Assembly (NCBI GenBank): GCA_029203145.1
Contig: CP119309.1
Location: 1,386,472-1,450,471 of the forward strand
Reading direction: 5' to 3'
Origin: Candidatus Brevundimonas phytovorans
GTDB taxonomy: Bacteria; Pseudomonadota; Alphaproteobacteria; Caulobacterales; Caulobacteraceae
DNA: 64,000 nucleotides
Positions 1 through 35,572 of the stretch are shown piece by piece; positions within the stretch are counted from its first letter, which is position 1, and every line of letters begins with the position of its first letter. Both the position numbers and the translations under genes were made by a program. The notes under the pieces are model-generated. The model saw only the letters and a program-made list of their open reading frames with translations, was not told the DNA's origin and ran no database searches.

Positions 1-213
1 TCGATCTAGCGCCACGACGCCCGGATGACGGCGCCTCGCTGGGCGCGCACTGTTCGAGAGCGACATGGGCCAGAATGACGGTTGAGGCCGCGACTGTCGT
101 CCGACAGCGTCGCCTCCATGCCCTGAGACAATCTCGCTTTCCCCCGTCGTCACGGCGATGTGGGCTCCGCCGGCAGGCGGGCGATGAAGTGACCCTTCAT
201 GCCCTCGGGCCGG

Positions 214-729
214 TCACGGTCTGGACGACAGGTCGAGTTCAAAAGGCTCGCCCCAGGCCGCCTCAGCCCCACGCCCCATGGCGGCGATGGCGCGGGTCAT
301 GGCGCCGTTGCGGTTCAGATGACGGTCGGCCAGGGCCACGATCAGCGGATTGGGCGTGGCGGTGGGAGCGGCGGCGCGCAGGCGTTCGGCCCAATCCGCT
401 TCTCCGCCAGGGGCAGATTTGGCGCAGGCGACGGCATAGGCCGCCGCCGTAGACCGACTGATCCCTGCCCAGCAGTGAATCAACAGAGGCCGAACCCCGT
501 TCCAGCTCTCGGCGAAGACCAACAAGGCGTTGATGTCGGCCGGGCTCGGCGGCGTCAGGCCCGGCCGAACCTCGGCGATGTCGTTGAACCTCAGGTCCAG
601 TCGATGAACCAGCGGATCGGCCAGAGGATCGTCGACGTGACCTGGCGAGGCCAGACTGACAAGATGCGACGGTTGATACCGCGCCAGCAGACCGCCGACC
701 TCACGCAGGGGCGCGACGATCAGCTTCAT
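214..729 (-). CDS. Cys-dependent (PTP/DSP-fold) phosphatase-like protein
   Basis: HCWAGISRS = CX5R P-loop; ATGA overlap with cobS stop (726-729). Confidence 0.85.
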   Translation of the reverse strand: MKLIVAPLREVGGLLARYQPSHLVSLASPGHVDDPLADPLVHRLDLRFNDIAEVRPGLTPPSPADINALLVFAESWNGVRPLLIHCWAGISRSTAAAYAVACAKSAPGGEADWAERLRAAAPTATPNPLIVALADRHLNRNGAMTRAIAAMGRGAEAAWGEPFELDLSSRP

Positions 730-1493
730 CCAACCACCAGCCCGGCGACGCCCAGCAGGAAGCCGACCTCGAACGCCTGCTCGACCGCGCCCAGAACGTC
801 ACCCGTGCGCCCGCCGATCAGGCGCCAGGCCAGCCAAGCGGGAACGGCGCCGAGCAACAGGCCCAGCGCCACGCCTCCGCCTCCCATGGCAGGTGTGAAG
901 AAACTCAGGGGCCATAGAGCGGTGAGAACGGCCACCGTCAGTCCCGCCAGCGAGGCACGATCCGGCCTGCCCTCCTTGGCCATGCCAGGGTCGCCGCCAT
1001 AGGGCATGATCGTCATCGCCATGACCGCCGCCGCACGCCCCAACCCATGCGCCGCCAACAAGGCAACGGCGGCAAGCAGAGGCGAAACCTGCGTCAGCAT
1101 GGCCAGGGCCGCGACGCGCAGCGCCAGGGTCAGACCCAGCGCCAAGGCGCCGTAGGAGCCCAATCGGCTGTCCTTCATGATCTCCAGCCGGCGCGCGCGT
1201 GTCAGCCCGCCGCCCAGACCATCGGCCGTGTCGGCCAGTCCATCTTCGTGGAAACCGCCGGTCAGGACGACGCCTGCCGCCACGGCCAGCAGGGCTGCGA
1301 TCCACGCGCTCCAGACCTGGGCCGCGCCATAGATGACGAGCGCCGACAGTGCCCCGACGATCTGGCCCACCAGTGGATAATAGCGCGCGCTCTGCTGAAT
1401 CCATTCTGATCGGAAACCGACCAAAGGCGGCGTTGGGATCCGGGTCAGGAACTGCACGGCGCAGACGAACAGCCTTCCCTCATGCCGGATCAA
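726..1493 (-). CDS. cobS: Adenosylcobinamide-GDP ribazoletransferase (cobalamin synthase)
   Basis: FLTRIP, TGGFHEDGLADTADG, IMKDSRLG, TGDVLGA motifs; hydrophobic. Confidence 0.95.
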   Translation of the reverse strand: MIRHEGRLFVCAVQFLTRIPTPPLVGFRSEWIQQSARYYPLVGQIVGALSALVIYGAAQVWSAWIAALLAVAAGVVLTGGFHEDGLADTADGLGGGLTRARRLEIMKDSRLGSYGALALGLTLALRVAALAMLTQVSPLLAAVALLAAHGLGRAAAVMAMTIMPYGGDPGMAKEGRPDRASLAGLTVAVLTALWPLSFFTPAMGGGGVALGLLLGAVPAWLAWRLIGGRTGDVLGAVEQAFEVGFLLGVAGLVVG

Positions 1494-2533
1494 ACCGCCG
1501 CCTCCAATACTTCAGACAGGTCCGCGACCTCGGACAGCAGGGCGCAGGCGGCCTTTGCCAAGGGCACGGCCAGCAAGGCGCCGGTTCCCTCGCCCAGCCT
1601 CATGTCCAGTTGCAGCAAGGGACGCGCTTCCATCGCCTCCAGCATCAGACGGTGCCCTGCCTCCGCCGAGGCATGAGCAAAGAGGCAATAATGGCGCGCG
1701 GCCGGCGCCAGGCGCACCGCCAACAGGGCCGCTGCTGTGCCGATAAAGCCGTCCACCAGCACGGGAACTCCAGCGTGGGCCGCCGCCAGCAGCCCCCCGG
1801 CCATCATGGCGATTTCATAGCCGCCAAACTGGCTCAGGACGTCGAAGGGCGTGGTGACGTCCGATCGCGCCGCCGCCTTGGCCAAAACCTCCCGCTTCCT
1901 CGCCATGCCTTCTGGCGCATGACCCGCCCCCTGCCCCACGCATTGCTCCAGGGACGCGGGAGCCAGCCGATGCATCAACAGGGCGGCCGAGGCGCTGTTG
2001 CCTATTCCCATTTCTCCGAGCGCGATCAGATCGGCGCCGTTGGCGATCGCCTCGACTGCCACACGCGCTCCGGCCAAGAGGGCGGCCTCGGCCTGAACGC
2101 GCGTCATGGCTGGCTCGACCGAGGCGTCAGCCGTGCCCCAGCCGACCTTGGCCTGAACCAGCCCCGAACGGTGGGACAGATCGGCGGCGACGCCCGCATC
2201 TATCACGCGGACCTCGACGCCAACGACACGGGCGAAGGCATTGGCGCTGGCCTTGCCCGCCAGCAGGGCATCGACCATGGAGACGGTTACGCCAGGGGGA
2301 AAGGCCGCCACCCCCGAGCGGGTCAGACCGTGATCGCCCGCGAAGACCAGAAGCACGGGTCGCTCGATCATCGGCTGCATGCGCCCCTGGATCAGGCCCA
2401 GAACCAGGGCCAATTCCTCGATCCGGCCGAGAGCCCCGGGCGGTTTAGCCTTACCGTCAAGCGCCCGCCGCAAGGCAGGCTCCAGCCTTCTATCCAGGGC
2501 TGGGACGGCCAGAAGTTCGGTCAGGTCGGTCAT
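1490..2533 (-). CDS. cobT: Nicotinate-nucleotide-dimethylbenzimidazole phosphoribosyltransferase
   Basis: KPPGALGRIE, FAGDHG, GEMGIGNS, MRLGEGTGA motifs. Confidence 0.95.
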   Translation of the reverse strand: MTDLTELLAVPALDRRLEPALRRALDGKAKPPGALGRIEELALVLGLIQGRMQPMIERPVLLVFAGDHGLTRSGVAAFPPGVTVSMVDALLAGKASANAFARVVGVEVRVIDAGVAADLSHRSGLVQAKVGWGTADASVEPAMTRVQAEAALLAGARVAVEAIANGADLIALGEMGIGNSASAALLMHRLAPASLEQCVGQGAGHAPEGMARKREVLAKAAARSDVTTPFDVLSQFGGYEIAMMAGGLLAAAHAGVPVLVDGFIGTAAALLAVRLAPAARHYCLFAHASAEAGHRLMLEAMEARPLLQLDMRLGEGTGALLAVPLAKAACALLSEVADLSEVLEAAV

Positions 2534-4002
2534 GTCAAACCCGCGATCCGGCTCAGGGCCGGGATGTCGAAGTGTTGTTCCAAAACGGCGGCGATGCGGT
2601 TCAGCGCCTGATCGACACGGTCCGTCTGATCGACGCCGTCGGACGCCACGCCCATTTCCGCCAGCAAGGCGTGTCGCGCGTCCGCCCGGTCAAACAGGCC
2701 GTGGACGTAGAGCCCCGCAATTCGCCCGTCGGGCGAACGCGCGCCGTGCGGCTGCCCATCGACGACAGCAACAGGGCGCCCAGTATCAGGACCGTTGGTC
2801 GAGCCGATGTGAATTTCATAGCCCTCGAAGACGGCGCGGGAGGAGACCATGCAGCCGCTCACCCGGCGCAAGATTTTTTGGCCCGCCAGCACGGTCTCTA
2901 CGTTCAGCAACCCCAGGCCCGGCGCAGTTCCGGCCACGCCTTCGACGCCCTCCGGGTCGCTGATCGTCCGTCCCAGCATCTGATAGCCGCCGCAAACGCC
3001 CAGGACCCTTCCCCCTCGCCGCGCGTGGGCGGCGATGTCCACGTCCCACCCCTGCGCCCGCAGAAAAGCCAGATCGGCTAGCGTCGCCTTGGTCCCCGGA
3101 AGAATGAGCAGGTCGGCGTCGCCCGGCAGGGGCTGGCCGGGAGGAACGAAGCCGAAGTCCACGCCCGGCTCGTGTCTCAAAGGATCGAAGTCGTCGAAAT
3201 TGGCGATGCGCGACAACATGGGGACGGCGATACGAACTCGACCGTCCCCCTCGCGGCCAGCCCTGTCCAACACGACCGCGTCTTCCGCCGGCAGAGATCG
3301 GGCGTCACTCATCCAGGGCGCCATACCCAGGTCCGTCCATGTGGTGCGTCTTGCGATTTCGGCCCGTCCTTCATCGAATAGCGACGGATCACCTCTGAAC
3401 TTGTTGATCAAAAAGCCTTTGATCATGGATCGGTCTTCGTCTTCCAACACGGCATGGGCCCCAACCAGGGACGCGATGACATGGCCCCGATCAATATCGC
3501 CGACCAGAATCACCGGTACATGTGCGGCCCGCGCAAAGCCCATGTTGGCGATGTCTCCAGCGCGCAGATTGGTCTCGGCCGGACTACCCGCCCCCTCGAC
3601 AATCACGAGATCAGCTTCCGCCTCCAGTGTGCGGAAGCTCTTCAGCACGACATCGAGAAGCGCGGCCTTGCGCCCTTGATAGCCCGCCGCCTGCCAGACG
3701 CCCTCGACCTGCCCGCGCACGACCAGTTGCGCGCCCGTATCACTCTGCGGTTTCAGCAGGACCGGGTTCATGTCCACGTTTGGCGGAACGCGGCAAGCCA
3801 GGGCTTGCAGCGCCTGGGCGCGACCGATTTCACCCACCTGCCCCTCGGCGCCGGGCGCGGTGACGGCGGCGTTGTTGGACATGTTCTGCGGCTTGAACGG
3901 CCGCACTGTCAGGCCGCGATTGGTGAACAGGCGGCACAGGCCCGCAACCAGCACCGACTTGCCCACGTCCGAGCCGCACCCCTGGATCATCAGCGCGCCC
4001 AT
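2530..4002 (-). CDS. cobQ: Cobyric acid synthase
   Basis: QGCGSDVGKS, PFKPQNMSNN, EGAGSPAE, GVCGGYQMLG, YVHGLF; start set at ATG 4002 after GGAGG. Confidence 0.95.
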   Translation of the reverse strand: MGALMIQGCGSDVGKSVLVAGLCRLFTNRGLTVRPFKPQNMSNNAAVTAPGAEGQVGEIGRAQALQALACRVPPNVDMNPVLLKPQSDTGAQLVVRGQVEGVWQAAGYQGRKAALLDVVLKSFRTLEAEADLVIVEGAGSPAETNLRAGDIANMGFARAAHVPVILVGDIDRGHVIASLVGAHAVLEDEDRSMIKGFLINKFRGDPSLFDEGRAEIARRTTWTDLGMAPWMSDARSLPAEDAVVLDRAGREGDGRVRIAVPMLSRIANFDDFDPLRHEPGVDFGFVPPGQPLPGDADLLILPGTKATLADLAFLRAQGWDVDIAAHARRGGRVLGVCGGYQMLGRTISDPEGVEGVAGTAPGLGLLNVETVLAGQKILRRVSGCMVSSRAVFEGYEIHIGSTNGPDTGRPVAVVDGQPHGARSPDGRIAGLYVHGLFDRADARHALLAEMGVASDGVDQTDRVDQALNRIAAVLEQHFDIPALSRIAGLT

Positions 4003-4934
4003 GCGAAACCTCCGGCGATCAGCAGCAACATCAGAACAACGCAAGCCATGCCATAGACGCGAAGACCTCGGTTCAGGTCATGGGCGCGCGGGGGCGCCCA
4101 GTCGCCGAAATCGGGGCGGTAGGTGGTGATTCCGTCATAGCGAACCGGCCCGCCCAACCGAACCCGAAGCGCGCCCGCCATGGCCGCCTCGGTCCAGCCG
4201 GCGTTGGGCGAGGCGTGCTTGCCCGCATCGCGCCACATGACGCGCCAGCCCTGCCAACCGCCCAGCGCGATCAAGGCCCCGGCGATCCGTGCCGGGATCC
4301 AGTTCATCACATCGTCGGTGCGCGCCGCCGCCCAGCCGAAAGCGCGCCAGCGCGGCTCCATATGGCCGATCATGCTGTCGGCGGTGTTGACCGCCTTGTA
4401 GACGAACAGACCCGGCAGGCCGCCGACCACGAACCAGAAGACCGGCGCGACCACCCCGTCGCAAAAGCTCTCGGCCAGACTTTCCAAGGCGGCGCCGGCC
4501 ACCTCGCCTTCGTCCATCGCCTCTACGTCGCGGCCGACGATCATGGCCACGGCCAGCCGCGCGGCGGGCAGATCGCCTGCCGCCAGCGGACGCGCCACGG
4601 CGCGGACGTGGTCGAACAGGCTGCGCGCCGCCAGGCCCGTCGCCCCCCAGATCACCAGGATCGCCTGTCCCGGCCAGAAGGGCGCCGTGGCGGCCAGCCC
4701 TTCAAGGCCCCAGCCCGCGCCGCCCGCCACGACCAGCAGGATCAGAACCGTCAGGACGCCCAGCGCGCGCCGTGACTTCGCCGACCACGCCGCGCGGTTC
4801 CAGCGCCGTTCCAGCGTCGCGATCAGACCGCCGATCCAGACGACCGGATGGCTCAGACGGCGCGGCCAGCCGATCGCGCCTTCCAGCAACAGGGCGCCCG
4901 CGACGATCCAGGGCGTCGGTACGCTAGCGGGCAC
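3990..4934 (-). CDS. cbiB: Adenosylcobinamide-phosphate synthase (CbiB/CobD family)
   Basis: HPVVWIG, IVGRD, ESLAESFCDG, YKAVNTADSMIG, SPNAGWTEAAMAGAL; probable GTG start at 4934 (start uncertain). Confidence 0.9.
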   Translation of the reverse strand: MPASVPTPWIVAGALLLEGAIGWPRRLSHPVVWIGGLIATLERRWNRAAWSAKSRRALGVLTVLILLVVAGGAGWGLEGLAATAPFWPGQAILVIWGATGLAARSLFDHVRAVARPLAAGDLPAARLAVAMIVGRDVEAMDEGEVAGAALESLAESFCDGVVAPVFWFVVGGLPGLFVYKAVNTADSMIGHMEPRWRAFGWAAARTDDVMNWIPARIAGALIALGGWQGWRVMWRDAGKHASPNAGWTEAAMAGALRVRLGGPVRYDGITTYRPDFGDWAPPRAHDLNRGLRVYGMACVVLMLLLIAGGFAWAR

Positions 4935-5700
4935 GGCCGACCATCTCCAGCACCGGGCCACGCAGGCCGTCCAGCGTGCGGGCCTCGACGCCATAGGCTG
5001 CTTTCAGCACCTCGGGCGACAGGGCCTCGACCGGCGCGCCGTCGGCCAGCACCCGCGCCTCGGCCAGAACGATCACGCGGTCGGCCACGCGCAGGGCGGC
5101 GTCGAGGTCGTGCAGGGTGATGACGACGCCACGCCCCTCTTCATCCGCCAGTCGCCGGAACAGGTCGCAGGCGTCCAGAACATGGCCGGGGTCCAGACCG
5201 GCCAGAGGCTCGTCGGCCAGCAGCCATTGCGGATCGCCGGCCAGAGCACGGGCGATCAGGACGCGCGCCCGTTCGCCGCCCGACAGGGTCGAGACGACGC
5301 GATCGGCAAACGCCTCCACGCCGGTCACGGCCATGGCGCGGTCCACGGCGACCCGGTCCTCGGCGGTCAGGCCCCAGGCGCCGACATGGGGGGTGCGGCC
5401 CAGACCGACGAAGGTGCGCCCGTTCACCGCCCAGGCGATCTCGGCGTTCTGTGGCAGATAGGCGATCCGGCGGGCCCGTTCCCGCGGCGGCAGGGTACGC
5501 AGGGCGCGACCGTCCAGCGTCACCTGACCGGCATCGGGTTTTCGCAGGGCCGCCAGACAGTCCAGCAACGTGGACTTGCCCGCCCCGTTCGGTCCGACCA
5601 CCGCCGTCACCAGTCCCGGCGCAAAGGCCGCGCCGACGCCGTTCAGCACCGCCTTGTCGCCCAGACGGACCGACAGATTTTCCGCGCTCAGAAGGCTCAC
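4924..5700 (-). CDS. btuD: ABC transporter ATP-binding subunit (cobalamin/Fe-chelate type)
   Basis: GPNGAGKST, LSGGE, LLADEP; GTGA overlap with permease; symbol from operon context. Confidence 0.85.
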   Translation of the reverse strand: MSLLSAENLSVRLGDKAVLNGVGAAFAPGLVTAVVGPNGAGKSTLLDCLAALRKPDAGQVTLDGRALRTLPPRERARRIAYLPQNAEIAWAVNGRTFVGLGRTPHVGAWGLTAEDRVAVDRAMAVTGVEAFADRVVSTLSGGERARVLIARALAGDPQWLLADEPLAGLDPGHVLDACDLFRRLADEEGRGVVITLHDLDAALRVADRVIVLAEARVLADGAPVEALSPEVLKAAYGVEARTLDGLRGPVLEMVGRAR

Positions 5701-6680
5701 GCCAGCTTCCTCCGCATGCCGATCAACAGGGCCAGGAAGAAGGGCCCGCCCAGAGCCGCCATGGCCACGCCCAGCTTGATCTCGGCGGCCGACGGGGTCA
5801 GCCGCACCAGAATATCCGCCGCCAGCACCAGGACCGCGCCGCCCAGAGCCGAGGGCAGCAGCAGCCCGCCGGGCCGGGCCCCGATCAGCGGTCGCAGCAG
5901 ATGAGGCACGATCAGGCCGACGAAGCCGATAGACCCTGTCACCGCCACCGCGGAGCCGACAGCCAGCGCCGCACCTAGGGCGAGCATCAAACGCCCCCTA
6001 TCCAGCCGAACCCCCAACGACCGCGCCCCGGCCTCGCCTAGGATCAGGGCGTCCAGCGTTCGACCCTGCGTCAGCAACAGCAGAGCCCCCAGGATCATGC
6101 CCGGCGCGGCCAGCTTCAGTTCGACCACGCTGCGGTCGGCCAACGAGCCCATCAGCCAGTTGACGATCTCGTTCACCGCCCAGGGGTTGGGCGCGAGGTT
6201 CAGCGCCAAGGCCACCCCCGCTCCGGCCATGGTCTGGATCACCACGCCCGCCAGAATGAAGGTGACGACACTGCTGGTCGCCCCCGCCAAGGCCAGTAGA
6301 AGGACCACGCCCAGTCCGGCCCCGAGCATGGCCGCACCGGGCAACACCCAGGGCGCGCTCGCCGCCGCACCCAGATAGAAGGTCAGCACCGCCCCGAGCG
6401 CCGCCATGGTCGAGACGCCCAGCATCCCCGGATCGGCCAGCGGATTGCGGGTGTAGCCTTGCAGCGCCGCCCCGGTCAGTCCCAGAACCGCCCCGACCAT
6501 CAGAGCCAGGATGGTGCGCGGCAGGCGCAGTTCAAACAGGATGGCCCAGGCCGGACCACCACGCTGGCTGGCCCAGTCGCTCCATGGAATCCAGACGCGT
6601 CCAGCGCTCATGCTGGCGACGAAGAGGACGGCGATCAGGGCCAGCAGCCCCGCCATGATCAAGGGTCGCGGCACGGTCAT
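5697..6680 (-). CDS. btuC: ABC permease, FecCD/BtuC family
   Basis: LRLPR, RNPLADPG, GSIGFVGLIVPH, GGPFF; start MTVPRP at 6680. Confidence 0.88.
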   Translation of the reverse strand: MTVPRPLIMAGLLALIAVLFVASMSAGRVWIPWSDWASQRGGPAWAILFELRLPRTILALMVGAVLGLTGAALQGYTRNPLADPGMLGVSTMAALGAVLTFYLGAAASAPWVLPGAAMLGAGLGVVLLLALAGATSSVVTFILAGVVIQTMAGAGVALALNLAPNPWAVNEIVNWLMGSLADRSVVELKLAAPGMILGALLLLTQGRTLDALILGEAGARSLGVRLDRGRLMLALGAALAVGSAVAVTGSIGFVGLIVPHLLRPLIGARPGGLLLPSALGGAVLVLAADILVRLTPSAAEIKLGVAMAALGGPFFLALLIGMRRKLA

Positions 6681-7525
6681 AGGGCCTCCAGCGCCGAGCG
6701 GCGCGCCCGAGCCAGGGCGGCGGCGGTCTGAATCAGCACCGGGCCGCCGCAATAGAGCAGCTTCTCGTCCAGTTGCGCCTGGACCATCCGACCTGACAGC
6801 GAGGCCAGCGCCGGGTGGCGCATCACCCGGTCGGCCCAGGTGCGCGAGCCCAGGGCGGGCGTGCCGCTGAGCAGGACCTGAGGCGGATCGGCCAGCAAGC
6901 GCTCGACCGGGACATTGCCCCACTTGCCGAGGCCATAGCGCCCGGCGACGTTATCGAACCCGGCGCGGGTCATCATCTCGTCCATCAGGGTGCCGCGCCC
7001 GGCGGCGAAACCGTTGGGCTGATAGATCAGGGCCTTGAGCGGTCGCGATCCCGGCGGCGGCGCGGCGGCGGCGATGGCGGTCTCAATGCGGGCGATCAGG
7101 GCCGCGGCTCGCGCCGGGCGACCAACCAGACGCGCGACCTCCCGCACCTGATCCAGACTGGCTGAGACGCTGTCGGGAACGGCGAACAACTCCGTAGGGA
7201 TGTTCATCCGCCCCAGCGCATTGCGGGTTGCGAGCGCGCTGTGGCGGCTGGTCAGCACCAGATCGGGGCGCAGGGCGATAACCTCCTCGGCCGTCTCCCA
7301 GGTGAAGGGCAGGGTCTTCGCCACCTCGGAAATGGTCGAGCCAACCGGCTCGCGCGCATAGTGGCTGAGCGCCGCGATCTGGCCCCGGTCGGCGACATGA
7401 ACCAAGATGGCGTCGAGGCAGGCGTTCAGGGAAACGACGCGACGCGGCGCGGGCTTGGCCACGGCGGGCGCGGCGATCAGGGCCGCGCCTGCACCGACCA
7501 ATGCGCCCCGCCGCGTCGTCCTCAC
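6677..7525 (-). CDS. btuF: Periplasmic cobalamin/Fe-chelate binding protein
   Basis: RRVVSLNACLD, AEEVIALRPDLV; RR-containing signal peptide; GTG start overlapping cobD stop. Confidence 0.82.
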   Translation of the reverse strand: MRTTRRGALVGAGAALIAAPAVAKPAPRRVVSLNACLDAILVHVADRGQIAALSHYAREPVGSTISEVAKTLPFTWETAEEVIALRPDLVLTSRHSALATRNALGRMNIPTELFAVPDSVSASLDQVREVARLVGRPARAAALIARIETAIAAAAPPPGSRPLKALIYQPNGFAAGRGTLMDEMMTRAGFDNVAGRYGLGKWGNVPVERLLADPPQVLLSGTPALGSRTWADRVMRHPALASLSGRMVQAQLDEKLLYCGGPVLIQTAAALARARRSALEAL

Positions 7526-8532
7526 GAGAAGGTCTCCAGCGCGCGGGCCAATCGCGGCAGATCGCGTTCGGTCGGCACGCCGAAGCGCAGACCGTCGGGC
7601 GTATGATCGAAGGGCCGGGTCAGGATGCCCGCCCGGCACAGGTGCTGAAACCAACGCGCCGCGTGGGGCGTGCGCGTCATGCGAAATAGGCTGGTTCCGC
7701 CAATGATCTGAAATCCGGCGTGGACTAGCAGATCATTGAGCCGATCAGCGCGATCCGCCAGGGCCGCCTCGGTCCGCCGCCGCCATCTGCTGTCGGCATA
7801 GGCGCCCCGCCCCATGATCAGGGCGTCGGCGCCGACAGGCCAGTCGCCCAGCAGGGCGCGCAGGCGTGAGATCACATCCGGCGCGGCCAGCATGAAGCCC
7901 AGCCTTACCCCGGCCAGACCATAGAACTTGCCGAACGAGCGCAGGACGATCAGGCCCGGTTCGGCCAAATCCGACACGCTGTCGTCGGGCGCGCATTCGA
8001 TGAAGGACTCGTCCACCACCAGCCAGCGGCCCGCCGCCGAGCGCTCGCGCGCCATGGCGATCAGGTCGGCGCGCCGGGTCAGGCGGCCGTCGGGATTATT
8101 CGGATTGACGATGACCAGCACTCCCGCCTGCGACGCCGCCGCCTGATCCGGTGCGATCAGGCGCGTCGCTACGCCCGCCGCCCGCCAGGCCTCGGCATGA
8201 GCGCCATAGGTCGGACCGACGATCTCGACCGAACGCACGCCCAGCAACAGAGGCAGAAGACGGATCGCCGCCTCGGCCCCGGCCACAGCAGCCGTCCGAT
8301 CCGTCGTCGCGCCGAAGGCCGCCGCCGCCGTCGTCTCCAGCGCGACCAGGGCGCCGGGATCAGGCAGGCGGTTCAACTCGGCCTCCGCCGCACGCGGCCC
8401 GCGCCATGGTTCGGGGTTGATCCCGGTGGACAGGTCCAGCCAGGGGCGCGGCGCGTCGGGATAGGCGGCGGCGGCCCTCATCAGACCGCCGCCGTGCCGG
8501 GTCGCCGTCGTCAGAAACGCGGCGTCATGCAT
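7522..8532 (-). CDS. cobD: L-threonine-O-3-phosphate decarboxylase (PLP; CobD/CobC-type)
   Basis: HGG, DLSTGINP, NPNNPDG, RSFGKFYGLAGVRLG. Confidence 0.92.
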   Translation of the reverse strand: MHDAAFLTTATRHGGGLMRAAAAYPDAPRPWLDLSTGINPEPWRGPRAAEAELNRLPDPGALVALETTAAAAFGATTDRTAAVAGAEAAIRLLPLLLGVRSVEIVGPTYGAHAEAWRAAGVATRLIAPDQAAASQAGVLVIVNPNNPDGRLTRRADLIAMARERSAAGRWLVVDESFIECAPDDSVSDLAEPGLIVLRSFGKFYGLAGVRLGFMLAAPDVISRLRALLGDWPVGADALIMGRGAYADSRWRRRTEAALADRADRLNDLLVHAGFQIIGGTSLFRMTRTPHAARWFQHLCRAGILTRPFDHTPDGLRFGVPTERDLPRLARALETFS

Positions 8533-8536
8533 CAGA

Positions 8537-10492
8537 TCAGAACCGGACGCGAACGCCGCCGAACACGCCGCGACCGGCCGTGCCGTAGTTCAGGACCGTC
8601 TGATAGTCCTCGTCGAAGGCGTTCTCGATCCGGCCATAGACCTCGAGGTTGTCATCGATCGGATAGGAGACCCGGAGGTCGACCAGGGTGTATTCGCCCA
8701 CGACGACGGTGTTGGCGTCGTTGTTGAACGTCTCGCCCACATAGCGCACCGCCACGCCCGTCTTCAGGCCAAAGGCGAAGGCGTAGTCGGCGGCCAGGTT
8801 GGCCATGTGCTCGGGGCGACGCGTCAGACGCTTGCCGTCCGTCGCGCCCGAGGCGCTCTTGGCGTCGGTCCAGGTGTAGTTAGCGCTGAGGTTAAGGCGG
8901 TCGGTCACATCGACGCGAGCGACCAGTTCGACGCCTTGCGCCTCGGTCTTCTGGACGTTCTTGTAATAGCCCCAGCGGCCGACGCCGTTCACCGTGCACA
9001 GCGGGTCGGTCGTGCCGAAGTCGCAGCCGTTGTAACGGATCTCGTTATCAGCCTGACGGTTGAAGTAGGTCGCCGAAACCACGGCGCGATCGAACAGACG
9101 CTGCTCGACGCCGACTTCCCAGCTGTCGAACTCTTCCGGCTGCAGCGTCAGATTGCCGTACTCACTGTAAAGCTCATACAGACCCGGCGCGCGGAAGCCC
9201 TGCCCCCAGCTGGCGCGCACCACAGTGTCGCCGTCGTTCAGAGCCCAGGCCGCCGCGACCTGACCCAGCAGGTTGTCGCCGTATTGGGCGTGGTCGTCGT
9301 AACGCAGGCCGCCGGTCAGGGTCAGGCCGTCGAGCACGGTCCACTGAACCTGGGCATAGGCGCTGTCCAGGTCCGCCTGACCGCGCGCGAAGGCCGGGTT
9401 CAGATTGAAGGCCGACGGCGAGCGGGTGCGCATTTCCGAACGCTCGCTCTCGATGCCGAAAGTGGTGTTCAGCGCCTCGGTAACGGCGAACGTGCCCTGG
9501 TATTCCCAGCGACGGTTCTCGCCCGCTGCGTCGAAGGTCAGCGGCTGAGCCAGGGTCTCCGGGTTGTAGTTGCGGCGGTTGGTGTCGGTGTAGGCATAGC
9601 CGATCCGGTTGCGGAAACGGCCGTCCAGCAGGTCGAAGTTGAGGCCCGCATAGCCGACCAATTCCTTGGTCTTGCCGTACTCGCGGCTGTCGCCGTTCCA
9701 GGCGTCAAAGTCATTCTGACCGCTGGACCAGACCGAGCGCAGGTCCAGCGAGACGGCGTCCGTGATCTTCAGGTTCAGGCGGCCCGACAGGCCGGTGTTG
9801 GTGTAGCCGTCGTCCTCGGTTCCCGTCGCATAGGCCGAGAAGCCGTCGGTATCATAGCGGCTGGCCGCCAGACGCCAGCTCAGACGGTCATTGGCGCCGC
9901 CGACGCCGCCGCGGAAGTAGGTCGTGCCGCGCGAACCCGCTTCGGCGTCGAGCGAGCCTTGCAGGGCCTCGGTCGGTTCGGCGGTGACGATGTTGACCAC
10001 ACCGCCGATGGCCTGGCTACCCCACAGGGTCGACTGGGCGCCGCGCAGGACCTCGATGCGTGCGGTGTCGCCGACCAGCAGGTTTCCGAAGTTGAAGCCG
10101 CCCTGGGTCGAGGACGGGTCGTTCAGCTTGACCCCGTCGATCAGGACGACAGTGTGCTGGCTCTCGGCGCCGCGAATGTTGACGCCCGCGGCAGCGCCGA
10201 CGCCGCCATTCCGAGTGTAGCTGACGCCCGGCGTCTGGGCCAGAAGCTCGGCCACGGCGGGGGTCTGGCGGGCTTCGATGGCGGCCTGGGTCAGGACCGT
10301 GACCGAGGCGCCGACGCGCTCGATGGGCTGGGCCGAACGGTTGGCGGTGACGATGACGTCGGCCACGGCGGTGGCGCCGGCGCGACCGGCCACGTCAGGC
10401 GCGGCGGCCTTCTGATCCAGATCTTCGGCGGCGGCGGGGAATGCGGCCAGAAGGCTGGCGGCAGCGAGGGTGGCATAGGCGATCCGGTTCAT
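8537..10492 (-). CDS. btuB: TonB-dependent cobalamin receptor
   Basis: Signal peptide, VIVTANR TonB box, plug motifs LIDGVKL and IEVLRGAQSTLWG, C-terminal Phe; downstream of B12 riboswitch; AAGGAG before ATG 10492. Confidence 0.93.
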   Translation of the reverse strand: MNRIAYATLAAASLLAAFPAAAEDLDQKAAAPDVAGRAGATAVADVIVTANRSAQPIERVGASVTVLTQAAIEARQTPAVAELLAQTPGVSYTRNGGVGAAAGVNIRGAESQHTVVLIDGVKLNDPSSTQGGFNFGNLLVGDTARIEVLRGAQSTLWGSQAIGGVVNIVTAEPTEALQGSLDAEAGSRGTTYFRGGVGGANDRLSWRLAASRYDTDGFSAYATGTEDDGYTNTGLSGRLNLKITDAVSLDLRSVWSSGQNDFDAWNGDSREYGKTKELVGYAGLNFDLLDGRFRNRIGYAYTDTNRRNYNPETLAQPLTFDAAGENRRWEYQGTFAVTEALNTTFGIESERSEMRTRSPSAFNLNPAFARGQADLDSAYAQVQWTVLDGLTLTGGLRYDDHAQYGDNLLGQVAAAWALNDGDTVVRASWGQGFRAPGLYELYSEYGNLTLQPEEFDSWEVGVEQRLFDRAVVSATYFNRQADNEIRYNGCDFGTTDPLCTVNGVGRWGYYKNVQKTEAQGVELVARVDVTDRLNLSANYTWTDAKSASGATDGKRLTRRPEHMANLAADYAFAFGLKTGVAVRYVGETFNNDANTVVVGEYTLVDLRVSYPIDDNLEVYGRIENAFDEDYQTVLNYGTAGRGVFGGVRVRF

Positions 10493-10639
10493 CCGGCGGC
10501 TCCTTGACGACGCCGGCCAACAGCCTCCCAAATGCCCATCGGACACGCGGAAGGGACCGCTGGCGCGGCTGGTTTACGACTGTCGTCACACGAGTCACCT
10601 CGACCGCTCGGCACATCCCGACCGCGCGGAGAACGACGG

Positions 10640-10825
10640 CGACAGGCAGGTCTCCTGGCTCACGGATCAACGCCGGTGCGCGTCGCCTTCCCAGAAATCC
10701 TTCGGGTCGAAACCGTCCAGATCGCCAGTGGCTATTGACGCGCGGGCTAGCCGCTTACAGTTGCGGGAACAGCCGGAGCATTAAACTCCGTTCCCTTTTG
10801 ATCCCCTCACGGGGAACCTGACGCG
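10640..10825 (-). promoter_or_regulatory. Cobalamin (AdoCbl) riboswitch
   Basis: Minus strand shows AGGTTCC...AAAAGGGAA...CCCGCAACTGTAA...GCCACTG...TGGGAAGG...AGCCAGGAGACCTGCC in the canonical order; boundaries approximate. Confidence 0.95.
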
Positions 10826-10873
10826 ATGGTGGCAGTAGGACCGCGCGCTGCTCAGGTCAACCGGAGACGATCA

Positions 10874-11395
10874 ATGAGCCTAACCCTGGTCCTGGGCGGC
10901 GCCCGCTCGGGCAAGAGCGCCTATGCCCAAAAGCAGGCCGAACGGGCGGCTGCGGGCACGGGCCGCCCTCCCCTGATGCTCGCCACCGCCGAAGCCTTCG
11001 ACGACGAGATGCGCGACCGCATCAACCGCCACCGTGAAGAACGCGGCGACGGCTGGCGTACCCGCGAGGTTCCGCTGGACCTGGCCGCGGCCATCCGCGA
11101 CCTGAGGCCTGAGGATGTCGTGGTCGTGGACTGCCTGACCCTGTGGCTCAGCAATCAGATGCTTGGCGGCCGCGACGTCGCCGCCGCCATTGACGACCTG
11201 GCCAGCGCGCTTGCGGCCTGTCCTGCCGCCGCCTGGGTCGTCAGCAACGAGGTCGGCTGGTCATTGGTGCCGGAGACCGCGCTTGGGCGCCGTTTTCGCG
11301 ATGCGGCCGGGCGATTGAACCAGCGGATCGCGGCTGTCGCTGACAGCACCTGCCTAATCGTCGCCGGGATGCGCCTGGCCCTTCATCCCGCCTAG
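10874..11395 (+). CDS. cobU: Bifunctional adenosylcobinamide kinase / cobinamide-phosphate guanylyltransferase
   Basis: LVLGGARSGKS, DDEMRDRI, VDCLTLWLSN, VSNEVG, FRDAAGRLNQ. Confidence 0.95.
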   Translation: MSLTLVLGGARSGKSAYAQKQAERAAAGTGRPPLMLATAEAFDDEMRDRINRHREERGDGWRTREVPLDLAAAIRDLRPEDVVVVDCLTLWLSNQMLGGRDVAAAIDDLASALAACPAAAWVVSNEVGWSLVPETALGRRFRDAAGRLNQRIAAVADSTCLIVAGMRLALHPA

Positions 11396-11531
11396 AGCCC
11401 CGGACGCGCCGCCCTGTCCCCCTCCATGAAGATCTCGGCGTGTATGGCTGTTCAGCGCCAGATGCGGGCATCGGTTCAATGAGGCAAAGCAGACCTGGCG
11501 ACTGACAGCGCGGCTGGATCCGATCCGGGCG

Positions 11532-21546: not shown

Positions 21547-24402
21547 GTGGACGAGATCTTGGGCGACTTCATCGCTGAGACCCGCGAGGGCCTAGAGGCG
21601 CTGGACAGCGAACTTGTGCGTTTCGAGCGTAATCCGCACGACCCCGAGCCCCTGGCCAGCGTCTTTCGCCTGATGCACACCATCAAGGGCGCGTGCGGCT
21701 TCATCGGCCTGGTGCGACTTCAAAGGATCGCCCACGCGGCGGAAGAGGTTCTAGGCGGTTTCCGCGACGGCTCTCTGATCGTGACCTCCGCCGCCGTCAC
21801 CACCATCCTGGAAGCCGTGGACGTGATCCGCGGCCTGATCGACGTTCTGGACGCAACGGGCCAAGAGCCGACCGGCGAGGACGGCGCGCTGATACATCGC
21901 CTCGAAGCGGCCTGCGTGGCCGTCGCGTCGGCCTCGCCGCCTCCGGCGACCTCAACCAGACCCCTGATCGAACGAATTGGCGGCGACGCTACACTGGACG
22001 CCGCCGCCGAGGCGGCCGCTGCGCGCCTGATGCGGTTGGCCCCGTTTGAGTCTCTGCTCGGCGCCGCCGACCCCATCCTGTTGCAGGCGGCCCTGTTGCA
22101 GGGCCTGCTGGGCGCCGCTCGCGGCAGCGAGGCCGCCACCCTGAGCCGGGCGCTGGAGGATATCGCCGAGATTCGCCTTGACGCCGAAATGCTGGACACC
22201 CTGTTCAGCGTAGTCGCGGCGGCGCTGGAGGCCTTGGACGCCTCGCCCGAGGACGTGGCGGAGTTGCGCATCCGCGCTCAGATCGGGACGAACGCCGCCG
22301 CACCGGCCTCGGCCCCGCCCGCGCCTGAAGACGTCGCGTTCGTCGCCGGCGTCGGCAAGTCCGCCGCCACCATCCGCATCAACGTCGAGGTGCTGGAACA
22401 GCTGATGCGCTCGGTCAGCGAACTGGTGCTGATCCGCAACCAGATGATCCAGACCCTGCGGCTGGAACCGGAAAGCCCCTTCAAAGGTCCGCTGCATCGC
22501 CTGAATCAAGTGACCAGCGAGATCCAGGAGAAGGTCATGGTCGCCCGGATGCAGCCGATCGGCGGCGCCTGGGCGAAGCTGCCGCGTCTGGTGCGCGATC
22601 TTGAGCAGGAACTCGGCAAGCGCATCGAACTGCATATGTCCGGTCAGGAGACTGAACTGGACCGACAGGTCATGGAGCTGATCCGCGACCCGCTGACCCA
22701 CATGATCCGCAACGCCGCCGATCACGGACTGGAAACCACGGAACAGCGCCGCGCCGCCGGCAAGTCCGAGGCGGGCCGCATCACCCTGGCCGCGCGCCAC
22801 GAAGGCGGGGCCATCGTCATCGAGGTGTCCGACGACGGGCGCGGCCTGTCGGTGTCGCGCCTGCGAGCCAAGGCGGTCTCTCTGGACCTGCTGACCGCCG
22901 CCGAAGCCGAGCAGATGAGCGACGCCGAGGCGATGCAACTGATCTTCCGCGCCGGTTTCTCGACGGCGTCCCAGGTCACCAGCGTCTCGGGCCGGGGCGT
23001 CGGCATGGACGTGGTGCGCTCCAACATCGAACAGATCGGCGGGGTGATCGAACTGAGATCCACCGAGGGTCAAGGCGCCTGTTTCACCGTCCGCATCCCC
23101 CTGACCCTGACCATCGTCTCGGCCCTGATCGTCGAGGCGGGCGGCGAGCGGTTCGCCCTGCCCCAGTCGTCGATCATCGAACTGGTCAGCGCCAGCGGCG
23201 CCTCGGGCCGCTGTATCGAACAGATCGAAGACGCGCCCGTCCTGCGGCTGCGCGAGCGCCTGTTGCCGCTGGTGTCGCTACAACGCCTGCTCAAGCTGGA
23301 CGACGAGGCCCCGCCCCAAACCCAGGGCAAGGCAGCCAACGAAACCTGCATCGTCGTCACCCATTTCGGAGCCAGCACCTTCGGCGTCATCGTCGACCGG
23401 GTCTTCGATATCGAGGAGATCGTGGTCAAGCCGGTGGCCGGGGTGCTGCGCCACCTCAACCTCTATTCCGGCGCGACCATCCTCGGCGACGGGGCGGTCA
23501 TCCTGATCCTGGACCCCAAGGGCACGGCGCGCACCGCCGGGGTCGATCAGATTTCCGGCCACCTGGCCGGGCTCGCCAGCGACGCCGCCCGCAAGGCCAA
23601 CGCCGCCCCGCCGCCGAAGGAGGAAGCCCTGCTCCTGTTCCGCGCCGCCGACGCGACCCTGCGCGCCGCCCCGCTGACCACCGTGTCCCGCATCGAAGAG
23701 GTCGAGGCCGCCCAGATCGAACAGGTCGAAGGCCGCGCCGTGCTTCAATACCGTGGACGGCTCATGCCGATCCTCGGCGCCGACGGTCGCGCGCCGGACT
23801 GGAGCGGCCCCGGTCGTCGCCCCCTGCTGGTCTTCGCGCGCGGCGATCAGGCCCTGGGCATGTTGATCGGCGAGATCGTCGACATCGTCGAGACCGCAGC
23901 CCAGCCCGAGATCAACAGCGCGGGCGGACTGACGCTGGGCAGCCTGATCGTCATGGACCAGGCCGCCGACCTGATCGACGTCGACGCCTATTGGCGGCGA
24001 GCCTTCGACGCCGCCGCGACGACGGAGGCCAGCCCATCCGGCGACGCCCTCTCCGCCCCCATCGCCGGCCTGAAACGTCTGCTGATCATAGACCCCAGCA
24101 CCTTCACCCAGTTGCTGCTGGGGCCGCTGCTGGCGCGCGCCGGCTATGTCGTGATCGTCGCCCCGGACGCCGAGGCGGCTCTGGCCCACCACGACGCCAA
24201 CGAGGTCTTCGACCTGATCCTAGCCGACCTTCAGCCCAGCCGCGCGCGCGAGTTCGCCCGGATTTTGGCCAGCGCCGAGCAGTGGCACGCCACGCCGCTT
24301 CTCAGCCTCAGCCTGCTGAACGGCGGCGGTCCCGCGCTGGACGCCACCCGACTGCTGGACGCCGTTTCCAGCGCCCTGACGCCCGAAAGCGCGGCGGCGT
24401 GA
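21547..24402 (+). CDS. cheA: Hybrid chemotaxis kinase: Hpt - globin-like insert - dimerization - HATPase - CheW - CheW - degenerate REC
   Basis: HTIKG, HMIRNAADHG, DDGRG, GFSTA, GRGVGMDVV; two CheW repeats; GTG start after AGGAGG. Confidence 0.95.
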   Translation: MDEILGDFIAETREGLEALDSELVRFERNPHDPEPLASVFRLMHTIKGACGFIGLVRLQRIAHAAEEVLGGFRDGSLIVTSAAVTTILEAVDVIRGLIDVLDATGQEPTGEDGALIHRLEAACVAVASASPPPATSTRPLIERIGGDATLDAAAEAAAARLMRLAPFESLLGAADPILLQAALLQGLLGAARGSEAATLSRALEDIAEIRLDAEMLDTLFSVVAAALEALDASPEDVAELRIRAQIGTNAAAPASAPPAPEDVAFVAGVGKSAATIRINVEVLEQLMRSVSELVLIRNQMIQTLRLEPESPFKGPLHRLNQVTSEIQEKVMVARMQPIGGAWAKLPRLVRDLEQELGKRIELHMSGQETELDRQVMELIRDPLTHMIRNAADHGLETTEQRRAAGKSEAGRITLAARHEGGAIVIEVSDDGRGLSVSRLRAKAVSLDLLTAAEAEQMSDAEAMQLIFRAGFSTASQVTSVSGRGVGMDVVRSNIEQIGGVIELRSTEGQGACFTVRIPLTLTIVSALIVEAGGERFALPQSSIIELVSASGASGRCIEQIEDAPVLRLRERLLPLVSLQRLLKLDDEAPPQTQGKAANETCIVVTHFGASTFGVIVDRVFDIEEIVVKPVAGVLRHLNLYSGATILGDGAVILILDPKGTARTAGVDQISGHLAGLASDAARKANAAPPPKEEALLLFRAADATLRAAPLTTVSRIEEVEAAQIEQVEGRAVLQYRGRLMPILGADGRAPDWSGPGRRPLLVFARGDQALGMLIGEIVDIVETAAQPEINSAGGLTLGSLIVMDQAADLIDVDAYWRRAFDAAATTEASPSGDALSAPIAGLKRLLIIDPSTFTQLLLGPLLARAGYVVIVAPDAEAALAHHDANEVFDLILADLQPSRAREFARILASAEQWHATPLLSLSLLNGGGPALDATRLLDAVSSALTPESAAA

Positions 24403-26530: not shown

Positions 26531-26550
26531 GACATGGCCGCCCGCAGCGT

Positions 26551-34539: not shown

Positions 34540-34647
34540 AGGCTGCGGTCCTCACTGGTCGTCATGAACGAGGGATATTTGAAGCGTGGAGGGCCGGTCC
34601 GCGTCGAACGATATGATCTCGTGCCGGCCGATAGGAAATCTGCGGGG

Positions 34648-35472: not shown

Positions 35473-35572
35473 GACCGACCTCCTGCTTGAAGGCCTTCGA
35501 CATAGGGCGGGACGCGTCAGTCGAGGAAACGATCAATCCTGTTTTGACCGTGCAGAAAATCTGACGGCGGTG

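What the first reader, a model, noticed from the sequence alone, without database searches (positions are those of the whole stretch)
214..729. CX5R phosphatase coupled to cobS: candidate non-orthologous replacement of CobC
Seen: the last gene of the riboswitch-controlled B12 operon overlaps the cobS stop (ATGA) and encodes a 171-aa protein with HCWAGISRS. No histidine-phosphatase (RHG motif) gene is present in the cob cluster. Established: CobT makes alpha-ribazole-5'-phosphate, CobS incorporates it, and a phosphatase (CobC in enterobacteria, unrelated enzymes elsewhere) must remove the phosphate; CX5R enzymes also act on small molecules. Inference: this PTP-fold protein may be an unrecognised alpha-ribazole-phosphate / AdoCbl-5'-phosphate phosphatase.
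Basis: partly seen in the sequence, partly recalled or inferred. Interest (0 to 1): 0.7.

Follow-up and report, generated by a model that had tools for sequence, protein, structure and literature searches.

The report
Candidate B12 last-step phosphatase, PTP fold
A small cysteine phosphatase gene fused into a Brevundimonas vitamin B12 operon, in the slot where other bacteria keep the unrelated CobC phosphatase, is probably the enzyme that removes the final phosphate in B12 assembly; this is untested, and most relatives of the gene sit next to NAD-related genes instead.

Summary
Window 214-729 (-) encodes a 171-aa protein with HCWAGISRS at residues 85-93. Its start overlaps the cobS stop (ATGA). 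It ends a gap-free operon headed by a cobalamin riboswitch: btuB-cobD-btuFCD-cbiB-cobQ-cobT-cobS-PTP. The protein reaches no Pfam or NCBIfam threshold, but its model (pLDDT 90.7) has a dual-specificity-phosphatase fold.

The linkage to B12 genes is conserved. Among cob-gene-containing stretches, 33 hold this phosphatase and no CobC-like histidine phosphatase. This covers two separate clades with different junctions (cobS-PTP and cobD-PTP, both usually overlapping). Six cob clusters have a CobC-like gene next to cobT/cobS and no PTP. None has both. One Nitratireductor plasmid carries the whole aerobic cob pathway with this gene as its only phosphatase.

Against a simple story, about 46 other relatives lie in an HD-hydrolase-PTP-NadQ (NAD regulator) module with no riboswitch found in the eight loci scanned. 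Their conserved residues are the same as in the cob-linked copies.

Best reading (about 0.55): an analogue of CobC that dephosphorylates adenosylcobalamin-5'-phosphate or alpha-ribazole-5'-phosphate. There is no experiment. Whole-genome absence of cobC could not be checked. A 2003 in-silico proposal (cblXY in some Alphaproteobacteria) may already cover this family.

The parts
214..729 (-). 171-aa PTP/DUSP-fold cysteine phosphatase; candidate adenosylcobalamin-5'-phosphate / alpha-ribazole-5'-phosphate phosphatase
   Evidence: ORF. AF2 pLDDT 90.7, pTM 0.90. Foldseek best matches DUSP22/DUSP15/MKP5, TM 0.57-0.60. Only sub-threshold Pfam hits. Conserved cob linkage.
451..477 (-). P-loop HCWAGISRS (His85-Ser93): nucleophile Cys86, phosphate-binding Arg92
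   Evidence: Translation. C86, A88, G89, S91, R92 and S93 are invariant in all 78 grouped relatives; H85 in 76 of 78.
580..582 (-). Asp50 (FNDI motif), candidate general acid 36 residues before Cys86
   Evidence: Invariant in alignments A1 and ptp.aln. Its role is inferred from PTP enzymology, not tested.
726..1493 (-). cobS (adenosylcobinamide-GDP ribazoletransferase); its stop overlaps the PTP start (ATGA)
   Evidence: PF02654 9e-51, NF001277 221 bits.
1490..2533 (-). cobT (NaMN:DMB phosphoribosyltransferase)
   Evidence: PF02277 5.5e-115, TIGR03160 388 bits.
2530..4044 (-). cobQ/cbiP (cobyric acid synthase)
   Evidence: GATase_3 and CbiA domains.
3990..4994 (-). cbiB/cobD (adenosylcobinamide-phosphate synthase); start codon uncertain
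   Evidence: PF03186 5.7e-97.
4924..7654 (-). btuF-btuC-btuD-like ABC importer genes (ORFs 6677-7654, 5697-6923, 4924-5700); starts uncertain
   Evidence: ORFs. The names are my reading of the translations and of the conserved order in relatives; they were not scanned against Pfam.
7522..8532 (-). cobD (L-threonine-O-3-phosphate decarboxylase)
   Evidence: TIGR01140 311.8 bits, above the cut-off of 290.55.
8537..10546 (-). TonB-dependent receptor (btuB-like), first gene after the riboswitch
   Evidence: ORF. Its position after the riboswitch is conserved in relatives.
10628..10836 (-). Cobalamin riboswitch aptamer heading the operon
   Evidence: RF00174 110.6 bits, E 7.6e-27, full length.
10826..11395 (+). 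cobU/cobP, divergent from the operon (true start probably downstream of 10826)
   Evidence: PF02283 5.5e-54.

Best explanation
The gene encodes a metal-independent cysteine phosphatase of the PTP/dual-specificity fold that has taken the place of CobC in nucleotide-loop assembly of cobalamin. CobT makes alpha-ribazole-5'-phosphate. Membrane-bound CobS joins it to adenosylcobinamide-GDP to give adenosylcobalamin-5'-phosphate. This enzyme then removes the 5'-phosphate. The inferred chemistry is as follows: Cys86 attacks the phosphate held by the P-loop and Arg92, Asp50 protonates the leaving ribose 5'-oxygen, and water then hydrolyses the cysteinyl-phosphate intermediate with help from Ser93. Translational coupling to cobS would keep phosphatase and synthase in step, as expected if the phosphatase docks on CobS. 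Shown: fold, motifs, operon membership, riboswitch, conserved coupling, and mutual exclusion with CobC-like genes inside cob clusters. Inferred: substrate, catalytic roles of residues, and interaction with CobS.
For: (1) The gene belongs to a gap-free operon headed by a riboswitch and has an ATGA overlap with cobS. The same riboswitch-to-PTP operon occurs in Caulobacter (L012) and in L061.
(2) The cobS stop and PTP start overlap by 4 nt in 18 of 21 cobS-PTP loci across several families (two more overlap by 10 nt, one has a 3-nt gap). The cobD-PTP junctions in six loci overlap or are at most 24 nt apart. Annotated Nitratireductor plasmids show cobD-PTP overlapping by 1 nt in two records and by 4 nt in a third.
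(3) An NJ tree puts the cobS-linked and cobD-linked copies in two separate clades, so the gene joined cob genes at least twice.
(4) Among cob-gene loci, 33 have the PTP and no histidine phosphatase, 6 have a histidine phosphatase and no PTP (plus Bradyrhizobium L094), and none has both. All seven comparator histidine phosphatases hit TIGR03162 ribazole_cobC best. In Methylibium that gene overlaps the cobS stop, exactly as the PTP does here.
(5) Nitratireductor kimnyeongensis pNK_1 carries a contiguous complete aerobic cob set whose only phosphatase is this gene.
(6) In other Brevundimonas the gene lies between cobS and cobO.
(7) CobC counteracts CobS toxicity and binds liposomes only with CobS, which gives a reason for tight cobS-phosphatase coupling (PMC8749415).
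(8) The best profile hit among solved structures is a PTP-like phytase, a small-molecule phosphatase.
Against: About 46 of the 80 reference-genome loci, plus the annotated S. meliloti locus, carry the gene in an HD-hydrolase-PTP(-NadQ) module far from cob genes. No cobalamin riboswitch was found in the 8 such loci scanned. Every strongly conserved column is the same in cob-linked and HD-linked copies, which argues for one shared substrate that need not be a cobamide. Absence of a cobC-type gene was shown only for the window and for 10-kb flanks, not for whole genomes. Histidine phosphatases are common and cobC mutants of Salmonella are leaky (my own knowledge). The loci were chosen through the PTP and the comparators through plasmid cobT, so the 33/6/0 table is neither a random nor a phylogenetically independent sample. 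There are no experimental data of any kind.
Confidence: 0.55

Rival explanations
1. The family is a housekeeping phosphatase for a pyridine or other ribonucleotide phosphate (for example NaMN/NMN, NADP or an ADP-ribose phosphate). It works with the adjacent YfbR-like HD hydrolase under the NAD regulator NadQ. Its presence in cob operons reflects only the NaMN link through CobT, or opportunistic use of a broad-specificity enzyme.
For: An HD gene ends about 15 nt before the PTP in 46 loci, and NadQ follows in 27, sometimes with nadA nearby. NadQ clusters with NAD genes (PMC2330246). Weak Pfam similarity to PTP-NADK and Tc-R-P nucleotide-associated PTP families. Conserved residues are identical across contexts.
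Against: A phosphatase that destroys NaMN would work against CobT when co-translated with it. It does not explain two independent recruitments into cob operons, the exact CobC slot, or the mutual exclusion with CobC-like genes. The HD partner is absent from every cob-linked locus.
Confidence: 0.2
2. It is a protein phosphatase (tyrosine or dual-specificity), as the public names say, regulating some protein unrelated to or only loosely tied to B12.
For: PTP/DUSP fold and HCX5R(S) motif. NCBI, UniRef and IMG names are 'tyrosine phosphatase family protein', and one record carries GO 'protein dephosphorylation' by electronic inference.
Against: No kinase or known phosphoprotein partner is seen in the cob operons or cob-adjacent genes examined (window and annotated plasmid clusters). 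Operon embedding with translational coupling to metabolic enzymes is conserved. The names come from fold-level similarity below family thresholds.
Confidence: 0.08
3. It dephosphorylates the linker precursor, (R)-1-amino-2-propanol O-2-phosphate (or threonine phosphate). This would feed the classical 'aerobic' route, in which free aminopropanol is attached and cobinamide is then phosphorylated by CobP.
For: In Rhizobiaceae/Phyllobacteriaceae the gene is coupled to cobD, the threonine-phosphate decarboxylase, not to cobS.
Against: In the window and in the whole Caulobacterales/Rhodospirillales clade it is coupled to cobS, with cobD up to 7 kb upstream. The step would waste a phosphate that CbiB can use directly (established for Salmonella; my own knowledge).
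Confidence: 0.06
4. It is a cobamide-remodelling enzyme that cleaves the nucleotide loop of imported non-cognate cobamides, useful to a salvager such as Brevundimonas.
For: The window encodes only uptake and late-assembly genes, which is a salvage set.
Against: PTP-fold enzymes are phosphomonoesterases, not diesterases (my own knowledge). The gene also sits in complete de novo clusters.
Confidence: 0.03

Closest known systems
CobC of Salmonella/E. coli (adenosylcobalamin/alpha-ribazole phosphatase, EC 3.1.3.73; histidine phosphatase superfamily, TIGR03162)
   Same: Proposed to catalyse the same reaction. It occupies the same place in cob clusters: next to cobT/cobS, and in Methylibium overlapping the cobS stop.
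   Different: Unrelated fold and chemistry: a cysteinyl-phosphate intermediate on an HCX5R loop versus a phosphohistidine intermediate on an RHG motif. There is no sequence similarity.
CobZ of Methanosarcina mazei (archaeal non-orthologous CobC replacement; named in PMC7617358 and PMC8123684; experimental proof is from my own knowledge of Zayas et al. 2006)
   Same: A precedent that the last phosphatase step has been filled by an unrelated enzyme.
   Different: Different lineage and family, and experimentally verified, whereas this gene is not. No sequence comparison was run here.
cblXY / cblZ (in-silico CobC displacements proposed by Rodionov et al. 2003, as cited in PMC8620254 and in the supplement of PMC6593275)
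   Same: The same idea: a non-orthologous alpha-ribazole-phosphate phosphatase, with cblXY assigned to 'some Alphaproteobacteria'.
   Different: Identity unknown to me because the 2003 paper is not held. No NCBI, UniRef or IMG name of this family or of the neighbouring HD, DUF1289 or TIGR02281 genes carries a Cbl label. It may be the same family (the HD-PTP pair would fit 'XY') or a different one.
Eukaryotic-type dual-specificity phosphatases (DUSP22, DUSP15, MKP5) and PTP-like phytases
   Same: Fold, HCxxGxxR(S/T) P-loop, and an upstream acidic residue.
   Different: 14-21% identity, TM about 0.6, below all Pfam gathering scores. It has extra invariant elements of its own (E110, R118, TPN 125-127, D135, R140, GRG 152-154). 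It is embedded in a bacterial metabolic operon.

Membership tests
Cysteine-based PTP / dual-specificity phosphatase superfamily | P-loop HCX5R(S/T) with nucleophilic Cys and phosphate-binding Arg | tested here: met
   HCWAGISRS at residues 85-93. C, A, G, S, R and S are invariant in all 78 grouped relatives; H in 76 of 78.
Cysteine-based PTP / dual-specificity phosphatase superfamily | DUSP-like alpha/beta fold | tested here: met
   AF2 pLDDT 90.7. Foldseek against PDB gives DUSP22, DUSP15 and MKP5 with probability 1.0 and TM 0.57-0.60.
Cysteine-based PTP / dual-specificity phosphatase superfamily | General-acid Asp on a loop upstream of the P-loop | tested here: inconclusive
   Asp50 is invariant and 36 residues upstream of Cys86. 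Its position relative to the active site in the model could not be inspected.
Cysteine-based PTP / dual-specificity phosphatase superfamily | Match to a curated family model (Pfam DSPc, Y_phosphatase, PTPlike_phytase, etc.) above the gathering score | tested here: not met
   The best is Y_phosphatase at 14.8 bits against a cut-off of 20.9. There are no NCBIfam hits. This is superfamily-level membership only, and the subfamily is uncurated.
CobC (histidine phosphatase, TIGR03162 / PRK15004) | RHG histidine-phosphatase fold and sequence | tested here: not met
   No similarity to E. coli CobC or to seven cob-linked histidine phosphatases by tblastn or HMM. No NCBIfam hit.
Functional class: adenosylcobalamin-5'-P / alpha-ribazole-5'-P phosphatase (EC 3.1.3.73) | Co-operonic and co-regulated with nucleotide-loop-assembly genes | tested here: met
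   Riboswitch-headed operon and ATGA coupling to cobS. The arrangement is conserved in 33 cob loci.
Functional class: adenosylcobalamin-5'-P / alpha-ribazole-5'-P phosphatase (EC 3.1.3.73) | Complementary distribution with cobC | tested here: inconclusive
   At cluster level: 33 PTP only, 6 (plus 1) histidine phosphatase only, 0 with both. Whole genomes could not be scanned, and the sampling is biased.
Functional class: adenosylcobalamin-5'-P / alpha-ribazole-5'-P phosphatase (EC 3.1.3.73) | Hydrolyses the 5'-phosphate of alpha-ribazole-P or AdoCbl-P; complements a cobC mutant | not testable with these tools
   This needs enzymology and genetics.
CblX/CblY (Rodionov 2003 predicted CobC displacement in Alphaproteobacteria) | Sequence identity with the genes so named | not testable with these tools
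   The paper is not held. No source name carries the label.
CobZ (archaeal CobC replacement) | Homology to M. mazei CobZ | not tested

The most novel reading that the evidence does not exclude
The whole alphaproteobacterial family (COG5350) is the long-unassigned last enzyme of the 'aerobic' B12 pathway, including in Sinorhizobium, Brucella and the industrial producers. Its usual partners, a YfbR-like HD hydrolase and the NAD regulator NadQ, would then mark a previously unseen coupling between lower-ligand (ribotide) processing and NAD homeostasis. For example, the HD enzyme could cleave an NAD-derived dinucleotide precursor while the PTP removes the phosphate.
Probability: 0.22. Interest if true: 0.7.

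Novelty: new variant of a known kind. Interest (0 to 1): 0.55.

Why it matters
The final dephosphorylation is the least well assigned step of cobamide assembly. As far as I could find, only the histidine phosphatase CobC and the archaeal CobZ have experimental support. Genome-based B12 predictions often leave the step out: the main text of Shelton et al. 2019 never mentions cobC. A PTP-fold enzyme in this role would be a third independent solution to the same reaction. It would give a marker gene for B12 salvage and synthesis in Caulobacterales, Rhodospirillales and many Rhizobiales. It would correct thousands of 'protein tyrosine phosphatase' annotations. It would also add a small-molecule, cofactor-biosynthetic function to the bacterial PTP superfamily. 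The complementation and enzyme assays needed are cheap, so the question is directly testable.

Tried and rejected
1. Pfam, NCBIfam and PDB sequence searches gave only sub-threshold PTP-superfamily hits and no named family.
2. I looked for Rosetta-stone fusions among ten unusually long family members and found none. One 465-aa protein is a hybrid with an FAD-binding domain, probably an artefact.
3. I looked for a cobalamin riboswitch near eight HD-linked copies and found none.
No paper links this family or COG5350 to B12; COG5350 appears only in a phosphatome census. Rodionov 2003, Vitreschak 2003, Zayas 2007, Romine 2017 and Gray 2010 are not held. Hits for 'cblX/cblY' were mostly accession prefixes or the human cblX disease.
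5. CobS as a tblastn query against plasmids failed because of the low-complexity filter, so I switched to CobT.
6. RNA evidence: only metagenomes hold the sequence, plus one small metatranscriptome with a third of the words, so I did not pursue it.
7. No convincing terminator or stable structure lies after the gene.
8. Distant paralogues (about 30-35% identity) on Rhizobium, Sinorhizobium and Roseateles plasmids stand alone in unrelated contexts and say nothing about function.
9. One metagenome look-up of a distant representative returned a 1.3-kb contig that was too short to help.
10. My GC3-based gene caller missed several true genes in these high-GC loci, so context calls were redone with tblastn and HMMs (versus 74, 90).

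Full report
**1. What is in the window**

The window comes from a Brevundimonas genome: the closest relatives of its proteins and loci are all Brevundimonas. On the minus strand a cobalamin riboswitch (10628-10836; RF00174, 110.6 bits) heads an uninterrupted gene array:
- a TonB-dependent receptor (8537-10546);
- threonine-phosphate decarboxylase CobD (7522-8532; TIGR01140 at 312 bits);
- three ABC-importer genes (4924-7654);
- CbiB (3990-4994), CobQ (2530-4044), CobT (1490-2533) and CobS (726-1493);
- the 171-aa ORF of the finding (214-729).

cobU is divergent at 10826-11395. Consecutive genes overlap or are at most 4 nt apart. The junction of interest reads GGATGAAG, so the PTP start ATG overlaps the cobS stop TGA. 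HCWAGISRS is residues 85-93. GC content by codon position matches the neighbours. No histidine-phosphatase homologue exists anywhere in the 64 kb.

The rest of the window holds regulators, a chemotaxis cluster and sulfate-assimilation genes, and nothing more for B12.

**2. What the protein is**

It passes no curated Pfam or NCBIfam threshold. Only weak hits to Y_phosphatase, DSPc, PTP-like phytase, Tc-R-P and PTP-NADK appear.
- An AlphaFold model built on 15 homologues is confident (pLDDT 90.7, pTM 0.90).
- Foldseek against the PDB returns dual-specificity phosphatases (DUSP22, DUSP15, MKP5) at TM 0.57-0.60 and 14-21% identity.
- A profile search of PDB sequences ranks a PTP-like phytase first.
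- The family is large: 3807 word-indexed hits and 4687 50%-cluster representatives at E<=1e-3.
- Public names are only 'tyrosine phosphatase family protein' or 'predicted protein tyrosine phosphatase', the COG5350 label.
- Besides the P-loop, the conserved residues are Asp50 (the likely general acid), E110, R118, T125-P126-N127, D135, R140 and G152-R153-G154.

It is thus a member of the cysteine-phosphatase superfamily, in a subfamily that no library describes.

**3. Gene neighbourhoods**

A scan of one genome per GTDB species returned 80 loci with 10-kb flanks. tblastn and HMM annotation plus an NJ tree separate three situations.

(A) A clade containing the window, made of Brevundimonas, Caulobacter, Acidocella, Rhodospirillaceae and Alsobacter. 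It has cobT-cobS-PTP.
- The cobS stop and PTP start overlap by 4 nt (ATGA, GTGA or TTGA) in 18 of 21 loci. Two more overlap by 10 nt and one has a 3-nt gap.
- In eight Brevundimonas loci cobO follows directly, so the gene is internal to the operon.
- In the window's own strain a resolvase/ParB element follows instead, and cobO is absent from the window.
- The riboswitch-to-PTP operon is also seen in Caulobacter L012 and in L061.

(B) A separate clade in Rhizobiaceae and Phyllobacteriaceae with cobD(decarboxylase)-PTP, overlapping or at most 24 nt apart.
- Annotated Nitratireductor plasmids confirm this arrangement.
- Plasmid pNK_1 carries a contiguous and apparently complete aerobic cob set (cobW, N, G, precorrin methyltransferases, cobA, cobB, cobS, cobT, cobF, cobU, cobO, cbiB, cobD). 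This gene is the only phosphatase in it.

(C) About 46 loci with a YfbR-like HD hydrolase ending about 15 nt before the PTP. These include Brucella, Pseudovibrio, Aestuariivirga and Rhizomicrobium, and the annotated S. meliloti locus shows the same arrangement.
- In 27 of them the 'NAD regulator' NadQ follows.
- Eight such loci contain no riboswitch.
- No cob-linked locus has the HD gene.

**4. The replacement test**

I fetched cob clusters that lack the PTP from annotated plasmids:
- Methylibium: cobT-cobS-histidine phosphatase, with the phosphatase overlapping the cobS stop;
- Sphingomonas, Sphingopyxis, Croceicoccus and Sphingobium: cobT-histidine phosphatase-cobS;
- Acidiphilium and Bradyrhizobium: histidine phosphatase adjacent to cobU/cobT.

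All seven proteins hit TIGR03162 (ribazole_cobC) best, though below its cut-off. A uniform HMM scan gave this table for loci with cob genes:

| Content of cob locus | Loci |
|---|---|
| PTP only | 33 |
| Histidine phosphatase only | 6 (plus Bradyrhizobium) |
| Both | 0 |
| Neither | 1 (the S. meliloti cobS/cobT locus) |

This is the pattern expected of non-orthologous displacement. However, the sample is biased by how the loci were found, is not phylogenetically independent, and says nothing about genes elsewhere in the genomes.

**5. Mechanism proposed**

Established steps (reviewed in PMC7242693):
- CobT makes alpha-ribazole-5'-phosphate from NaMN and DMB.
- CobS condenses it with adenosylcobinamide-GDP to give adenosylcobalamin-5'-phosphate.
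- A phosphatase finishes the cofactor.

Jeter and Escalante-Semerena showed three things: excess CobS kills E. coli, CobC relieves this, and CobC associates with liposomes only when CobS is present. They proposed that CobS anchors a multienzyme complex (PMC8749415).

A phosphatase translationally coupled to cobS fits that picture. I infer the following chemistry: Cys86 forms a cysteinyl-phosphate with the 5'-phosphate of AdoCbl-P (and probably of free alpha-ribazole-P). Arg92 and the P-loop amides bind the phosphate. Asp50 protonates the leaving oxygen. Ser93 assists hydrolysis. None of this chemistry was tested.

**6. What speaks against it, and the rivals**

The conserved columns of the cob-linked and HD-linked copies are the same, with no systematic difference at any strongly conserved site. 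The family therefore probably has one substrate class.

If that substrate is the cobamide phosphate, the family would be the general alphaproteobacterial last-step enzyme. The HD/NadQ neighbourhood would then remain unexplained, although E. coli cobC itself lies next to nadD.

If instead it is a pyridine or other ribonucleotide phosphate, its use in cob operons would be secondary. I give that rival 0.2.

The other rivals are less likely. Their evidence and the results that would refute them are given in the rival explanations:
- a protein phosphatase: 0.08;
- an aminopropanol-phosphate phosphatase, suggested by the cobD coupling: 0.06;
- a remodelling diesterase: 0.03.

**7. Known or new**

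- CobC and archaeal CobZ are the recognised enzymes for this step (PMC7617358).
- PMC8620254 states that cblZ and cblXY were proposed for Actinobacteria and for some Alphaproteobacteria respectively, citing Rodionov et al. 2003.

I could not obtain the 2003 paper. No NCBI, UniRef or IMG name for this family, its HD neighbour, or the DUF1289 and TIGR02281 genes that follow cobS in S. meliloti carries a Cbl label.

COG5350 had 6 members in 5 of the 66 genomes of the early COG set. That is compatible with the five non-rickettsial Alphaproteobacteria then sequenced; this is my inference. It is therefore quite possible, roughly even odds in my judgement, that the PTP, alone or with the HD gene, is what was called cblX/cblY.

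Either way, three points stand:
- The idea has not reached current annotation.
- I found no experimental test.
- The evidence assembled here is, as far as I can tell, not in the papers I could search. It comprises two independent recruitments, conserved stop-start overlap, the cluster-level exclusion table, and a complete cob supercluster with this as the sole phosphatase.

**8. Verdict**

This is a real gene and a real, conserved association. I rate it as a new variant of a known kind, namely an analogous enzyme for a known reaction. Interest is moderate to high for B12 specialists, and the tests needed are simple.

Noticed in passing
L085 5381-7483 (S. meliloti); also L022-L080, about 9400-11500: A conserved three-gene module: YfbR-like HD hydrolase, this PTP family, then the NAD regulator NadQ, often with overlapping genes and sometimes with nadA nearby. 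The HD protein is 59-67% identical across genera, much more conserved than the PTP. The function of the pair is unknown.
   Followed up: partly
window 1-213; L081 2999-5978: In eight other Brevundimonas loci cobO follows the PTP within about 30 nt. This strain has no cobO in the 64-kb window. A contig of the same strain shows a 101-aa ORF, a serine recombinase and a ParB/RepB gene right after the PTP, which suggests a mobile-element insertion that split the operon end.
   Followed up: partly
L090 3020-4774 (S. meliloti): cobS is followed on the same strand by a 73-aa DUF1289 (YdhL-like Cys-rich) gene and a TIGR02281 membrane aspartic protease gene that overlaps it. This apparent cobS operon has no obvious B12 logic. 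These, rather than the PTP, might be what older literature called cblX/cblY.
   Followed up: no
L083 3297-4573 (E. coli K-12): The canonical cobC lies immediately next to nadD (NaMN adenylyltransferase). This echoes the NAD-gene neighbourhood of the PTP family.
   Followed up: no
L087 6083-8746 (Methylibium plasmid): cobS, the CobC-like histidine phosphatase, a '2'-5' RNA ligase family' (2H phosphoesterase) gene and a hypothetical gene all overlap in one cob operon. The 2H enzyme has no assigned B12 role.
   Followed up: no
L088 5489-5896; L095 7489-7896; L096 7489-7896; L093 798-1256: A DUF1636 gene sits directly upstream of and overlapping cobT in Sphingomonadales, and next to cobW in Nitratireductor thuwali.
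   Followed up: no
L059 4015-4484; L047 5349-5808; L060 5403-5859; L071 4005-4455; L078 4007-4461: Two full-length cobalamin riboswitches lie back to back on opposite strands, about 60-75 nt apart, upstream of the cobU-cobO-cobQ operon and of a divergent gene in Rhizobiaceae and Mesorhizobium.
   Followed up: no
L093 5992-6498 (Nitratireductor thuwali plasmid): The PGAP record gives this cob-cluster gene the GO term 'protein dephosphorylation' by electronic inference. That is probably an over-annotation from fold-level similarity.
   Followed up: no
L035 891-1424; L036 11590-12180: Two HD-type loci from uncultured Alphaproteobacteria do carry a CobC-like histidine phosphatase within 10 kb of the PTP, but without cob genes nearby. 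They are the only cases where both phosphatase types occur in one stretch.
   Followed up: no
window 21547-28445 and 31745-44010: A chemotaxis cluster (CheA-CheW fusion, MCP, CheR, CheB) and a sulfate-assimilation cluster (CysNC, siroheme synthase CysG, sulfite reductase, CysK-like protein, sulfate-binding protein). The CysG here serves siroheme, not B12.
   Followed up: partly
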